From: Dehalococcoidia bacterium
GTDB lineage: Bacteria; Chloroflexota; Dehalococcoidia; Lucifugimonadales; JAGWBF01
Assembly: GCA_965247295.1 (NCBI GenBank)
Contig: CBDFGQ010000007.1
Coordinates: 560,317-624,316 of the forward strand
Length of the DNA stretch: 64,000 nt
Direction of reading: 5' to 3'
Position 1 is the stretch's first letter. Every line of letters starts with the position of its first letter. Under the pieces are notes generated by a model. The model searched no databases and was not told the origin of the DNA. It was given only the letters and a program-made list of their open reading frames with translations. Made by a program: the position numbers and the translations under genes. Shown piece after piece: positions 46,987-47,922 of the stretch.

Positions 46987-47922
46987 ATGATGCGTATCTG
47001 TTCCTTCTTGCCCAGCGCGACGGAGATGGTGTATGCCCTGGGGTTGGGCGATCACCTTTACGGCGTCAGCCATGAGTGTGACTATCCACCCGAGGCTCGA
47101 AAGCTGCCCCGGGTAGCCTATAGCATCTTTGACGAGGGCGAACACTCTAGCGCGGATATTGACCGGATGATTAAGGAGCGGCTGACAGAGGGCAAGGGGA
47201 TCTACGAGATCGACGAGGATGTGCTTCGTGAGGCGGAGCCGGACCTGTTGCTCACCCAAGAGCTCTGCGCCGAGTGAGCAATAACGGCGCGGCAGGTTGC
47301 CGACGCGACGGAAAAGCTGCCCAAGGTGCCGGAGATCCTCTCCCTGGACCCGGTGTCATTGGAAGGCGTGCTGGGAGACATCTTGAAGGTGGGTCAGGCC
47401 ACGAGTACAGAGGGAGTGGCCGAGGGGCTGGTGGCCTCCCTTCGACGTAGGATCGACACGGTAAAGAATAAGGCAGCCCTCGCACAGACCAGGCCCAAAG
47501 TCGCCTGCCTGGAGTGGATGGAGCCCGTGCTGTGCGCGGGCCACTGGGTGCCGGAGATGGTGGAGCTGGCCGGTGGGGAGGACTGCCTGGGGAAGAAGGA
47601 CAGCCCCTCCTTCAGGGTCGAGTGGGAGCAGGTACTTGAGGAACGACCCGACGTGGTGGTGATCACCCCTTGTGGCTTCGACGTAAGGCGGGGGCTCCAG
47701 GAGGTGCATCTGCTGACGTCCAGGGATGGATGGAAGTCGCTGCCCGCGGTGGAATCGGGCCGGGTGTACGTCGTGGATGCCAGCGCCTACTTCAGCCGTT
47801 CGGGACCCAGGCTGGTGGACGGCCTGGAGGTCATGGCGGAGATGCTGCACCCGGAGATCTTTTCGGGAATGGTCCCGGAGGGTGCGGTCGCCCGTCTTTA
47901 CGGGGAGCGGGTCTCGCGCTGA
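46987..47922 (+). CDS. cytoplasmic BtuF/FhuD-fold (Peripla_BP_2-like) binding protein with in-frame TGA; candidate selenoprotein
   Basis: [37 protein letters not shown]...LLLTQELCAE-TGA-AITARQVADATEKLPKVPEILSLDP... The two track ORFs (tail of 45796..47277, and 47326..47922) share one frame with only TGA 47275-47277 between them. AGGGGGTG SD lies before ATG 46987. No signal peptide. Confidence 0.65.
47287..47306 (+). other. candidate bacterial SECIS-like hairpin
   Basis: GCGCGGCA-GGU-UGCCG(A)CGC: 8 bp with a bulged A and a GGU apical loop. The loop starts 17 nt after the TGA. The apical sequence GCAGGUUGC resembles E. coli fdhF GCAGGUCUGC, which I recall lying 18 nt after its UGA. Confidence 0.45.

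What the first reader, a model, noticed from the sequence alone, without database searches (positions are those of the whole stretch)
47263..47328. C-x-x-[UGA] motif plus SECIS-like hairpin: candidate selenocysteine in a cytoplasmic BtuF/FhuD-fold binding protein
Seen in sequence. A 311-codon frame (46987-47922) encodes one continuous Peripla_BP_2-like domain without a signal peptide ([37 protein letters not shown]...). It is interrupted only by TGA 47275-47277, and the 16 codons between the TGA and the tracked GTG restart contain no other stop. The TGA sits in ..LTQELC-A-E-[TGA]-A-I-T.., so together with the upstream Cys it forms C-x-x-U. As I recall the Cys-containing members of this subfamily, they carry a conserved C-x-x-C-A-V at this spot; that is from memory and unverified. 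The hairpin GCGCGGCA-GGU-UGCCG(A)CGC (47287-47306) begins exactly 17 nt after the TGA. It has 8 bp, a bulged A and a G-G-U apical loop. That matches the published bacterial SECIS constraints (loop 16-37 nt from UGA, G in the first loop positions) and resembles E. coli fdhF GCAGGUCUGC. TGA is an ordinary stop elsewhere in this window (lspA, nuoA, nuoB, sdhA), so any recoding would have to be local. This fold is not among the selenoprotein families I know. The alternatives are a TGY-to-TGA nonsense mutation or a base-call error, and the divergent neighbour also carries a premature stop.
Basis: partly seen in the sequence, partly recalled or inferred. Interest (0 to 1): 0.8.

Follow-up and report, generated by a model that had tools for sequence, protein, structure and literature searches.

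The report
Selenocysteine codon in cytoplasmic BtuF-like protein
The in-frame TGA is almost certainly a real selenocysteine codon with its own recoding hairpin, in a signal-less vitamin-B12-binding-type protein of a Dehalococcoidia bacterium; the family is already listed in selenoprotein catalogues but is uncharacterised and usually split into two fragments in databases.

Summary
Frame 46987/46990-47922 (+) is one Peripla_BP_2 domain interrupted only by TGA 47275-47277. This gives C-x-x-[TGA], followed by the hairpin at 47287-47306.

The TGA column is the second Cys of an invariant L-C-x-V-C-A-[VI] motif in the 48 full-length Cys homologs aligned.

The same TGA sits at the same column in 39 related loci, about 37 Dehalococcoidia/Chloroflexota species at 54-99% amino-acid identity. 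All of them keep intact frames on both sides.

Every Sec-type locus has the hairpin (C/G)CGGC-AGGUN-GCCG at the same distance. None of 39 Cys-type loci shares it. The stem codons are frozen at synonymous sites, and one stem pair shows two compensatory changes.

The hairpin meets all four published bacterial SECIS constraints. TGA is an ordinary stop elsewhere in the window.

Sec machinery could not be checked in this genome.

It is not new as a kind. [quoted passage not shown]

What this work adds is context. The protein has no signal peptide. Cys homologs elsewhere sit in TonB/ABC uptake operons beside a second, secreted BtuF, two of them next to cobalamin riboswitches. This suggests a cytoplasmic corrinoid-handling role, which is inferred.

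The parts
46990..47922 (+). Full coding sequence of the BtuF-like (Peripla_BP_2) selenoprotein: 310 residues from ATG 46990 (311 from ATG 46987), with Sec at the TGA. No signal peptide.
   Evidence: Translation. Pfam PF01497, E 9e-20, over residues 9-266 spanning the TGA. More than 7000 homologs, and full-length Cys forms align end to end. Orthologs start at MRICSF with stops 1-4 codons upstream.
46978..46983 (+). Shine-Dalgarno-like AGGGGG, 6 nt upstream of ATG 46990.
   Evidence: Read from the sequence. Analogous GGGAG/GGAGG motifs lie upstream of the ATG in orthologs.
47266..47268 (+). TGC codon for the first Cys of the C-x-x-U motif (Cys94 counting from ATG 46987).
   Evidence: This column is invariant Cys in 49 aligned homologs.
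47275..47277 (+). In-frame TGA read as selenocysteine (position 97). It replaces the second Cys of the family's invariant CxxC.
   Evidence: TGA sits at this column in 39 related loci, and TGC/TGT in 39 more distant ones.
47287..47306 (+). Bacterial SECIS hairpin GCGCGGCA-GGU-UGCCG(A)CGC: 8 bp, bulged A47303, apical GGU at 47295-47297 (or the loop A-GGU-U at 47294-47298).
   Evidence: MFE -12.3 kcal/mol. The same hairpin occurs in all 39 Sec-type loci and in no Cys-type locus. Stem codons are frozen at synonymous sites. The G17-C27 pair becomes A-U in L005 and L017. It meets the bSECIS constraints quoted.
47326..47328 (+). GTG that gene callers take as the start of a 198-aa 'gene'. It is in fact an internal Val codon of the full protein.
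   Evidence: ORF 47326-47922. P0002 is the truncated database entry. Codons between the TGA and this GTG evolve as coding sequence.
47927..48661 (-). Convergent downstream gene for a LON substrate-binding-domain protein. It is a conserved neighbour within Dehalococcoidia and is probably not co-transcribed.
   Evidence: Pfam PF02190, E 1.6e-33. It is adjacent in 30 Sec-type and 3 Cys-type loci.

Best explanation
UGA 47275-47277 is a genuine selenocysteine codon. As the ribosome reaches it, the hairpin at 47287-47306 would recruit SelB carrying Sec-tRNA(Sec). The hairpin presents an invariant A-GGU-N apical loop 16-17 nt downstream, and UGA is then decoded as Sec instead of stop. The product is a single protein of about 310 residues with a BtuF/heme-SBP fold and no signal peptide, in which Sec replaces the second Cys of an invariant CxxC.

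Shown here: the Sec/Cys pairing, conservation of the UGA, conservation of the hairpin, and translation through the UGA (inferred from the codon-substitution pattern).

Inferred: SelB/tRNA-Sec dependence, and the protein's function. My best guess for function is a cytoplasmic acceptor or processor of imported corrinoid (less likely heme). In that reading the CxxU selenolate, placed on the cleft loop equivalent to the Trp66 loop of E. coli BtuF, would act as an axial metal ligand or a nucleophile/redox centre. BtuM's Cys-mediated decyanation of B12 is the analogy.
For: 1. Sec/Cys pair. The TGA column is invariant Cys in the CxxC of full-length homologs.

2. Conserved UGA. TGA sits at the identical column in L001-L038 and L052, which represent about 37 GTDB species of Dehalococcoidia/Chloroflexota at 54-99% amino-acid identity. 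The ORF is intact on both sides in all of them. All Sec forms make one clade, whose sister is a Cys-form Dehalococcoidia.

3. Hairpin. The MFE of nt +9..+39 is -11.5 +/- 1.2 kcal/mol with the same hairpin in 39 of 39 Sec loci. In 39 Cys loci it is -4.9 +/- 2.6 with no common structure.

4. Synonymous-site freezing.
   - Across 164 columns with a conserved amino acid, mean codon entropy is 1.21 bits.
   - The stem codons are fixed: R = CGG in 36/36, Q = CAG in 38/38, E = GAG in 32/32, and A = GCC in 36/38.
   - The two GCU exceptions pair with CGG->CAG on the other arm.
   - The loop codon Val carries 1.6 bits.

5. Translation through the UGA. Codons +1 to +6 after the UGA vary synonymously (Ala uses 4 codons, Ser uses 4) with no possible start codon in between.

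6. The hairpin meets all four bSECIS constraints quoted from PMC13188914. It shares GCAGGU with the verified E. coli fdhF SECIS, offset by 1 nt.

7. TGA terminates nuoD, nuoH, nuoL/M/N, sdhA and about 29 of 60 ORFs in the window, so the genetic code is not globally reassigned.

8. Dehalococcoidia MAGs are among the most selenoprotein-rich bacteria, with 46-49 selenoprotein genes (PMC13326102).

9. Function.
   - Fold: the AF2 model of a 62%-identical Cys homolog has pLDDT 91, and its top PDB matches are heme SBPs and BtuF.
   - Operons: Cys homologs lie in operons of TonB receptor, lipoprotein, this protein, a second Peripla_BP_2 with a signal peptide, an ABC ATPase and FecCD.
   - Riboswitches: cobalamin riboswitches lie at L055 356-523 and L064 6227-6427.
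Against: - No selA, selB, selD or tRNA-Sec is present in the 64-kb window. The rest of the genome could not be searched.
- Covariation is thin. Only one core stem pair changes, in 2 lineages, and the shuffle control is not significant. The RNA evidence therefore rests on conservation within one clade, which shared ancestry inflates.
- On the single sequence the hairpin is no better than about 4% of random TGA contexts.
- No Rfam family matches.
- The functional inference is indirect. In Dehalococcoidia the gene is not next to any transporter or B12 gene. No coordinates were available to measure where the Cys/Sec residues sit. The CxxC loop is the least confident part of the model, with pLDDT 68.
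Confidence: 0.9

Rival explanations
1. The gene is a pseudogene. A TGY-to-TGA nonsense mutation inactivated a Cys-type BtuF-like gene in this lineage.
For: The divergent neighbour 45547-46758 (-) really does carry a nonsense codon, TAG where the 99%-identical L002 has TGG. Nonsense variants therefore do occur in this assembly. TGC to TGA is a single-base change.
Against: The same TGA is kept in about 37 species down to 54% identity. No locus shows a further stop or frameshift in the roughly 215 codons downstream, and the substitutions look like purifying selection. A dead gene would not keep that.
Confidence: 0.01
2. The TGA is a sequencing or assembly error, and the true codon is TGC or TGT.
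For: The window comes from a metagenome assembly, and L002 has only about 2x coverage according to its contig name.
Against: An identical TGA appears in independent assemblies from different samples and technologies: ERZ26167216, ERZ25067264, long-read chromosomes OZ/OY, and NCBI MAGs. The 95-aa N-terminal fragments ending at this codon occur on hundreds of contigs.
Confidence: 0.005
3. The gene is genuinely split. Translation stops at the UGA and restarts downstream (GTG 47326 in the window), giving a 95-aa peptide and a peptide of about 198 aa that assemble into the fold without selenium.
For: Gene callers predict exactly these two products. A GTG lies 16 codons downstream in the window.
Against: - The residues between the UGA and any possible restart (A-I/V-S/T-S/A-R-Q) are conserved as protein, with synonymous variation and no start codon among them.
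- The restart position is not conserved. P0072 was called from a different start and is 208 aa long.
- The break would fall inside the loop carrying the invariant CxxC and would delete its second ligand.
- A hairpin with frozen synonymous sites has no role in this model.
Confidence: 0.03
4. The UGA is read through, but not as Sec. Either a near-cognate tRNA (Trp or Cys) inserts its amino acid, stimulated by the downstream hairpin, or the Sec machinery inserts Cys when selenium is scarce.
For: Downstream structures can stimulate read-through (general knowledge). Sec machinery in this genome was not shown.
Against: - The column is strictly Cys in homologs, so a chalcogen residue is required there.
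- The hairpin geometry and the G-G-U loop match the SelB-binding bSECIS model and fdhF.
- The class is known to be selenoprotein-rich.
- The family is already catalogued as a selenoprotein.
Confidence: 0.05

Closest known systems
'Cobalamin(-)binding protein BtuF' selenoprotein family (cd01144, motif CxxU, one Sec), listed in the selenoprotein catalogues of Zhang et al. 2022 (PMC9312934; example RUA21600.1) and Zhang et al. 2026 (PMC13188914; example MDE0719563.1)
   Same: It has the same domain assignment (BtuF / Peripla_BP_2), the same CxxU motif and a single Sec. The window gene is most probably a member.
   Different: Identity with the example accessions could not be checked, because they were not retrievable. 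The catalogues give only a table row. They do not mention the cytoplasmic location, the SECIS, the restriction to a Dehalococcoidia clade, or the riboswitch/TonB operon context of the Cys forms. The paper cited as the source (Peng 2016) does not name the family in its text or in the supplements held.
E. coli fdhF selenocysteine insertion sequence (bSECIS)
   Same: Both are hairpins inside the coding region directly after the UGA. They share the GCAGGU sequence at the top of the stem, have a GGU at the start of the apical loop and a bulged nucleotide in the 3' arm or stem, and place the loop 17 nt (here) versus 18 nt (fdhF) after the UGA.
   Different: The lower stem sequence differs. The loop is 3-5 nt here rather than GGUC. 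The bulge is an A on the 3' arm in the window clade and is absent in the major clade, which has a perfect 6-7 bp stem CUCGGC/GCCGAG. SelB binding was not tested.
E. coli / Vibrio BtuF and heme substrate-binding proteins (ShuT, PhuT, BhuT, RhuT, IsdE): class III periplasmic binding proteins of ABC importers
   Same: The two-lobe fold with a long connecting helix is shared. The Pfam PF01497 hit has E 9e-20. The best PDB sequence hit is V. cholerae BtuF at E 5e-15. Foldseek gives target-normalised TM-scores of about 0.8.
   Different: There is no signal peptide. In Dehalococcoidia there is no adjacent permease or ATPase. The family has four invariant Cys (31, 94, 97=U, 229) and His186 that canonical BtuF lacks. 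It scores far below the NCBIfam BtuF cut-off, 51 bits against 234.
SaoB / SaoX ABC substrate-binding selenoproteins (Haft & Gwadz, bioRxiv 10.1101/2022.07.06.499078)
   Same: These are the other substrate-binding-protein-type selenoproteins in which Sec is proposed as a metal or organometal ligand.
   Different: The motifs differ (CU / UxP in SaoB and SaoX, CxxU here). No NF040727 or NF040735 hit appeared in the NCBIfam scan. SaoB/SaoX are secreted components of a nine-gene SAO locus in anaerobes. This protein is cytoplasmic and has no such locus.
BtuM (Rempel et al. 2018, PMC6072759)
   Same: [quoted passage not shown] The mechanism proposed here for CxxC/CxxU rests on this analogy.
   Different: BtuM has an unrelated fold (a membrane ECF-S-like protein). 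The similarity is an analogy only, and no activity has been tested for the present family.

Membership tests
Bacterial selenoprotein gene (Sec-UGA + bSECIS) | The in-frame UGA aligns with Cys in homologs (a Sec/Cys pair). | tested here: met
   The column is invariant Cys in 48 full-length homologs, and is TGC/TGT in 39 genomic loci.
Bacterial selenoprotein gene (Sec-UGA + bSECIS) | The UGA and the reading frame on both sides are conserved in orthologs from different species. | tested here: met
   There are 39 loci from about 37 species at 54-99% identity, all with intact frames of about 308-312 aa.
Bacterial selenoprotein gene (Sec-UGA + bSECIS) | bSECIS structural constraints: apical loop of 3-9 nt; upper stem of 4-16 bp; G in the first two loop positions; 16-37 nt between UGA and loop; MFE <= -7.5 kcal/mol (PMC13188914 Fig. 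2A). | tested here: met
   The loop is GGU (or A-GGU-U). The upper stem is 5 bp, plus 3 bp after a bulge. The spacing is 17 nt (or 16). The MFE is -12.3 kcal/mol. The hairpin is present in 39 of 39 Sec loci.
Bacterial selenoprotein gene (Sec-UGA + bSECIS) | The hairpin is supported by compensatory base changes. | tested here: inconclusive
   One core pair (G-C to A-U) changes in two lineages. The other pairs are invariant, and the shuffle control is not significant. Strong freezing of synonymous sites supports an RNA constraint instead.
Bacterial selenoprotein gene (Sec-UGA + bSECIS) | selA, selB, selD and tRNA-Sec are present in the same genome. | not testable with these tools
The only indirect support is that Dehalococcoidia MAGs carry 46-49 selenoprotein genes (PMC13326102).
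Bacterial selenoprotein gene (Sec-UGA + bSECIS) | Selenium is demonstrated in the protein. | not testable with these tools
   This needs 75Se labelling or mass spectrometry.
Catalogued 'Cobalamin-binding protein BtuF' selenoprotein (cd01144, CxxU) | BtuF-type domain with a single Sec in a CxxU motif. | tested here: met
   Pfam PF01497 hit. NCBIfam BtuF NF002894 is among the top hits, though below its cut-off. The CxxU motif is read from the sequence.
Catalogued 'Cobalamin-binding protein BtuF' selenoprotein (cd01144, CxxU) | Sequence similarity to the catalogue's example proteins (RUA21600.1, MDE0719563.1). | not testable with these tools
   Accessions cannot be fetched. The cluster look-up returned other accessions, all named 'hypothetical protein'.
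Periplasmic class III substrate-binding protein of an ABC importer (BtuF/FhuD/heme SBP) | Two-lobe Peripla_BP_2 fold. | tested here: met
   Pfam E 9e-20. The AF2 model of a 62%-identical homolog has pLDDT 91, and Foldseek matches heme SBPs and BtuF at E 1e-15 to 1e-17.
Periplasmic class III substrate-binding protein of an ABC importer (BtuF/FhuD/heme SBP) | N-terminal signal peptide or lipoprotein signal (export). | tested here: not met
   The protein starts at MRICSF, which is the first beta-strand. Stops lie 1-4 codons upstream in L001, L003, L009, L013, L026 and L028. The paralog next to it in the Cys-form operons does have a signal peptide.
Periplasmic class III substrate-binding protein of an ABC importer (BtuF/FhuD/heme SBP) | Encoded with a cognate FecCD permease and an ABC ATPase. 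| tested here: not met
   These are absent around the window gene and in the Dehalococcoidia loci. They are present only next to some Cys-type homologs in other phyla.
SaoB/SaoX selenoprotein SBPs | CU or UxP motif and a match to NF040727 / NF040735. | tested here: not met
   The motif here is CxxU, and the NCBIfam scan lists neither model.

The most novel reading that the evidence does not exclude
The protein is a cytoplasmic corrinoid (or tetrapyrrole) chaperone/processing enzyme built on a transporter binding-protein fold. It would receive B12 from the importer on the inside of the membrane. Its CxxC/CxxU site, together with invariant Cys31, Cys229 and His186 in the cleft, would ligate the cobalt or remove or reduce its upper ligand. 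In this reading the Dehalococcoidia upgraded the nucleophile to selenocysteine, making it the first selenoenzyme of B12 handling.
Probability: 0.3. Interest if true: 0.65.

Novelty: new member of a known kind. Interest (0 to 1): 0.42.

Why it matters
For annotation: this gene is routinely split into a 95-aa 'hypothetical protein' and a fragment of about 200 aa, across hundreds of Dehalococcoidia/SAR202-type contigs. No NCBIfam model reaches its cut-off for it. The conserved CGGC-AGGUN-GCCG signature gives a simple way to repair those records.

For biology: almost all bacterial selenoproteins are thiol-oxidoreductase-like. A Sec in the ligand cleft of a binding-protein fold is one of the few cases where selenium may act as a metal or cofactor ligand. 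The link between the Cys homologs and B12-riboswitch/TonB/ABC uptake loci that already encode a secreted BtuF points to an unrecognised cytoplasmic step in corrinoid salvage. That is relevant to Dehalococcoidia, many of which depend on salvaged corrinoids (established knowledge for Dehalococcoides). None of this is surprising to a selenoprotein specialist, because the family is already catalogued.

Tried and rejected
- **Rfam:** A scan of the whole window and a permissive scan of 47200-47400 found no SECIS family, only tRNA-Asn. Rfam offers no usable bacterial SECIS model for this hairpin.
- **Single-sequence folding:** The statistics are not significant, so the hairpin alone was rejected as evidence.
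- **Covariation test:** On 38 Sec-type sequences the shuffle control is not significant. The argument relies on synonymous-site conservation instead.
- **Hairpin enumerator:** My first perfect-stem enumerator missed the finding because of the bulged A. It was replaced by an MFE-based scan.
- **Structure prediction:** A 62%-identical Cys homolog was modelled instead. Coordinates are not exposed, so Cys-Cys distances could not be measured.
- **Cluster look-up:** The catalogue accessions RUA21600.1 and MDE0719563.1 could not be matched.
- **Literature source:** Peng 2016 is cited as the source of the BtuF entry, but neither its text nor its held supplements mention it. The deep-Sep and BSepDB papers do not mention it either.
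- **Other selenoproteins in the window:** A search for a second in-frame TGA with a coding-like GC pattern on both sides found none.
- **The neighbour's premature stop as a second recoding site:** Rejected. It is TAG where a 99%-identical relative has TGG.
- **Global TGA reassignment:** Rejected.
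Full report
**1. The observation**

- Frame 46987-47922 (+) has one internal stop, TGA 47275-47277.
- The local codons are CTC TGC GCC GAG TGA, giving L-C-A-E-* and therefore C-x-x-[UGA].
- Sixteen stop-free codons separate the TGA from GTG 47326. Gene callers use that GTG as the start of a 198-aa 'gene'.
- The joined 311-residue translation is one Peripla_BP_2 domain. The Pfam PF01497 hit has E 9e-20 and covers residues 9-266, so it spans the TGA.
- The hairpin at 47287-47306 has 8 bp, a bulged A47303 and a GGU loop. It is the minimum-energy fold of the local 30 nt, at -12.3 kcal/mol.

Minor corrections:

- The apical loop, not the hairpin, begins 17 nt after the TGA.
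- The probable start is ATG 46990 (MRICSF...), with AGGGGG 6 nt upstream.

Taken alone, the hairpin is weak evidence in this 62% G+C DNA.

- The z-score is -1.1.
- Among all 1681 TGA triplets in the window, 4.3% are followed by an equally stable hairpin that meets the loose SECIS rules.

**2. Comparative evidence for recoding**

A homolog search returned more than 7000 relatives. In the full-length ones, the TGA column is the second Cys of an invariant L-C-x-V-C-A-[V/I] motif.

Two hits were truncated at the same place.

- One is P0002, 99% identical.
- The other is P0072, a 77%-identical ortholog from another sample. Its contig (L001) carries TGA at the identical column, in conserved synteny.

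A scan of one genome per GTDB species gave 80 loci, and the closest are all Dehalococcoidia/Chloroflexota MAGs.

- Together with L001 and L002, 39 related loci have TGA at exactly this column: L001-L038 and L052. They cover about 37 species at 54-99% amino-acid identity.
- 39 more distant homologs have TGC or TGT. These come from Binatia, Thermodesulfobacteriota, Nitrospirota, archaea and some Dehalococcoidia.
- Every TGA-type gene keeps an intact frame of about 308-312 aa.
- In a neighbour-joining tree the TGA forms make a single clade with two branches. Its sister is a Cys-form Dehalococcoidia.

This rules out a base-call error and a pseudogene.

**3. The RNA element**

All 39 TGA-type loci fold into the same hairpin at the same offset.

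- The core is CGGC-AGGUN-GCCG.
- In the major branch it extends to CUCGGC/GCCGAG.
- In the window's branch it extends to GCG-CGGC/GCCG-(A)-CGC.
- The mean MFE of nt +9..+39 is -11.5 +/- 1.2 kcal/mol.
- The 39 Cys-type loci average -4.9 +/- 2.6 kcal/mol and share no structure.

Synonymous sites show the constraint directly.

- Across 164 columns with a conserved amino acid, mean codon entropy is 1.21 bits.
- The stem codons are fixed: Arg is CGG in 36/36, Gln is CAG in 38/38, Glu is GAG in 32/32, and Ala is GCC in 36/38.
- The Val codon whose third base lies in the loop carries 1.6 bits.
- The two GCU exceptions (L005 and L017, on different branches) coincide with CGG to CAG on the opposite arm. 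That is a G-C to A-U compensatory change.

Formal covariation is otherwise absent, and the shuffle control is not significant. I therefore rest the case on conservation and say so.

The hairpin satisfies all four constraints of the published bacterial SECIS model (PMC13188914).

| Constraint | Model | This hairpin |
|---|---|---|
| Apical loop | 3-9 nt | GGU, or A-GGU-U |
| Upper stem | at least 4 bp | 5 bp, plus 3 bp after the bulge |
| G in the first two loop positions | pattern N1-G-[G/U]-N-N2 | matched exactly by A-G-G-U-U |
| Spacing from UGA to loop | 16-37 nt | 16-17 nt |
| MFE | <= -7.5 kcal/mol | -12.3 kcal/mol |

It also shares GCAGGU with the E. coli fdhF SECIS. I verified the fdhF sequence against 5419 E. 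coli genomes. The fdhF loop lies one nucleotide further from the UGA.

**4. Translation passes through the UGA**

- Codons +1 to +6 after the UGA (A, I/V, S/T, S/A, R, Q) are conserved as amino acids but vary synonymously. Ala uses four codons and Ser uses four.
- No ATG, GTG or TTG lies between them and the UGA. They can only be translated by ribosomes coming through the UGA.
- A split-gene model also fails because the downstream start is not conserved. The called C-terminal fragments are 198 aa in one lineage and 208 aa in another.
- TGA is a normal terminator for nuoD, nuoH, nuoL/M/N, sdhA and about half of the window's ORFs, so any recoding is local.
- No second candidate was found in the window.

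**5. What could not be shown**

- The window has no tRNA-Sec, selA, selB or selD, and I could not search the rest of the genome.
- The only indirect support is from the literature. Dehalococcoidia MAGs are among the bacteria with the most selenoprotein genes, 46-49 each (BSepDB paper, PMC13326102).

**6. What the protein is**

- It has no signal peptide. In several orthologs a stop lies 1-4 codons upstream of M-R-I-C-S-F, which is already the first strand of the fold.
- An AlphaFold model of a 62%-identical Cys homolog is confident (pLDDT 91.2), except for the CxxC loop (pLDDT 68).
- Its best PDB matches are heme-binding SBPs (RhuT, ShuT, BhuT, IsdE) and BtuF, with target-normalised TM-scores of about 0.8.
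- By sequence, the best PDB hit is Vibrio BtuF.
- The family has four invariant Cys (31, 94, 97 = Sec here, 229) plus His186, Trp177 and Trp187.
- From what I know of BtuF structures, the CxxC follows the strand whose end carries Trp66 in E. coli BtuF. That is a loop lining the ligand cleft. This placement is an inference.

**7. Genomic context**

In Dehalococcoidia:

- The gene is not next to transport or B12 genes.
- The only conserved neighbours are a convergent LON-substrate-binding-domain gene (33 loci) and, in the major branch, an upstream Na+/H+-exchanger-type gene (21 loci).

Cys-type homologs in other phyla are more informative.

- In eight loci the order is: TonB-dependent receptor, predicted lipoprotein, this signal-less CxxC protein, a second Peripla_BP_2 protein with a signal peptide, an ABC ATPase, and a FecCD permease. 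These are L046, L048, L050, L051, L053, L058, L061 and L077, from Thermodesulfobacteriota, Ignavibacteriales and bacterium HR37.
- In L055 a cobalamin riboswitch (93.6 bits) precedes a TonB receptor, the CxxC protein and a Cys-rich CWC/DUF5522 protein on one strand.
- In L064 a riboswitch (140.5 bits) controls the adjacent receptor.

A locus that already encodes the periplasmic binding protein and adds a cytoplasmic paralog suggests an intracellular acceptor or processor of the imported corrinoid. BtuM, which ligates cobalt through a Cys and decyanates B12 (PMC6072759), is a mechanistic precedent. I put about 0.3-0.35 on this function. Heme or another metal chelate remains possible.

**8. Comparison with what is known**

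- The family is not new. [quoted passage not shown] 2022 (PMC9312934) and Zhang et al. 2026 (PMC13188914). It has one Sec, and both tables attribute it to Peng et al. 2016.
- That paper's text and the supplements held do not mention it.
- I could not retrieve the example accessions, so membership rests on matching domain and motif.
- It is distinct from the SaoB/SaoX binding-protein selenoproteins, which have CU / UxP motifs, are secreted and belong to the SAO locus. No NCBIfam hit to those models appeared.
- No NCBIfam model reaches its cut-off for this protein.
- In public databases the gene is systematically split. The 95-aa N-terminal fragments form 90%-identity clusters of 145, 90 and 70 members. 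NCBI names them 'hypothetical protein'.

**9. Verdict**

This is a bona fide Sec codon with a SECIS, with confidence about 0.9. What is missing is the machinery check and any experiment.
- It is a new member of an already catalogued but uncharacterised selenoprotein family. Interest is therefore moderate.
- The added value lies in four things:
  - the clade-wide SECIS definition;
  - the cytoplasmic location;
  - the link of the Cys homologs to B12 uptake loci;
  - a testable hypothesis for a selenium-dependent step in corrinoid handling.

Noticed in passing
window 45547-46758 (-), stop at 46357-46359: The divergent upstream gene encodes a 403-aa LVIVD-repeat-type protein in the 99%-identical locus L002. 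In the window it is broken by TAG where L002 has TGG (Trp). This is a plain nonsense variant or assembly difference, not recoding. One further substitution lies 13 nt downstream.
   Followed up: yes
L046, L048, L050, L051, L053, L058, L061, L077 (for example L050 3-6645): Cys-type homologs sit in operons ordered TonB-dependent receptor, predicted lipoprotein (weak DUF5074 hit), signal-less CxxC BtuF-like protein, a second Peripla_BP_2 protein with a signal peptide, an ABC ATPase, and a FecCD permease. A cytoplasmic and a periplasmic BtuF paralog are thus encoded side by side.
   Followed up: partly
L055 356-523 (+) and L064 6227-6427 (-): Cobalamin riboswitches (RF00174, 93.6 and 140.5 bits) lie upstream of TonB-dependent receptor genes adjacent to Cys-type homologs. 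In L055 the riboswitch, the receptor, the CxxC protein and a Cys_rich_CWC/DUF5522 protein are on one strand, with overlapping stop and start.
   Followed up: partly
L084 5777-6724 (Cys-type homolog P0014): This Cys form reads CCCAGCAGGTCGCAGAG after its TGT codon. That is 2 nt away from the SECIS of Sec-type L017 (CTCAGCAGGTCGCTGAG), and the hairpin no longer forms (-3.3 kcal/mol). It may be a decaying SECIS left after a Sec-to-Cys reversion, but the direction of change was not tested.
   Followed up: no
Alignment of Sec-type loci, codon -1 (L007-L038): In the major Sec branch the codon immediately before the UGA is GTT (Val) in 32 of 32 genes, with zero synonymous variation. This suggests a constraint on the 5' context of the UGA as well. 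The window's branch has GAG there instead.
   Followed up: no
window 47927-48661 (-) and 33 related loci: A LON substrate-binding-domain protein gene (PF02190) lies convergently just downstream of the BtuF-like gene in 30 Sec-type and 3 Cys-type Dehalococcoidia loci. It is unclear whether this reflects a functional link or plain synteny.
   Followed up: partly
Public protein databases (clusters of P0121-P0166): The 95-residue N-terminal fragments that end at the residue before the TGA form 90%-identity clusters of 145, 90 and 70 members. Single sequences occur on up to 316 contigs. NCBI annotates them as 'hypothetical protein' (for example MYC37138.1, PCI19355.1, MAX59918.1, MCH8298888.1). This is systematic mis-annotation.
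   Followed up: partly
window 32241-34328 (-) and 58355-61249 (-): A 695-aa DUF255/thioredoxin-domain protein (PF03190) and a 964-aa ORF with only a weak TrwB_AAD_bind hit (E 1e-5) lie elsewhere in the window. Both end in TGA and neither has an in-frame TGA.
   Followed up: no
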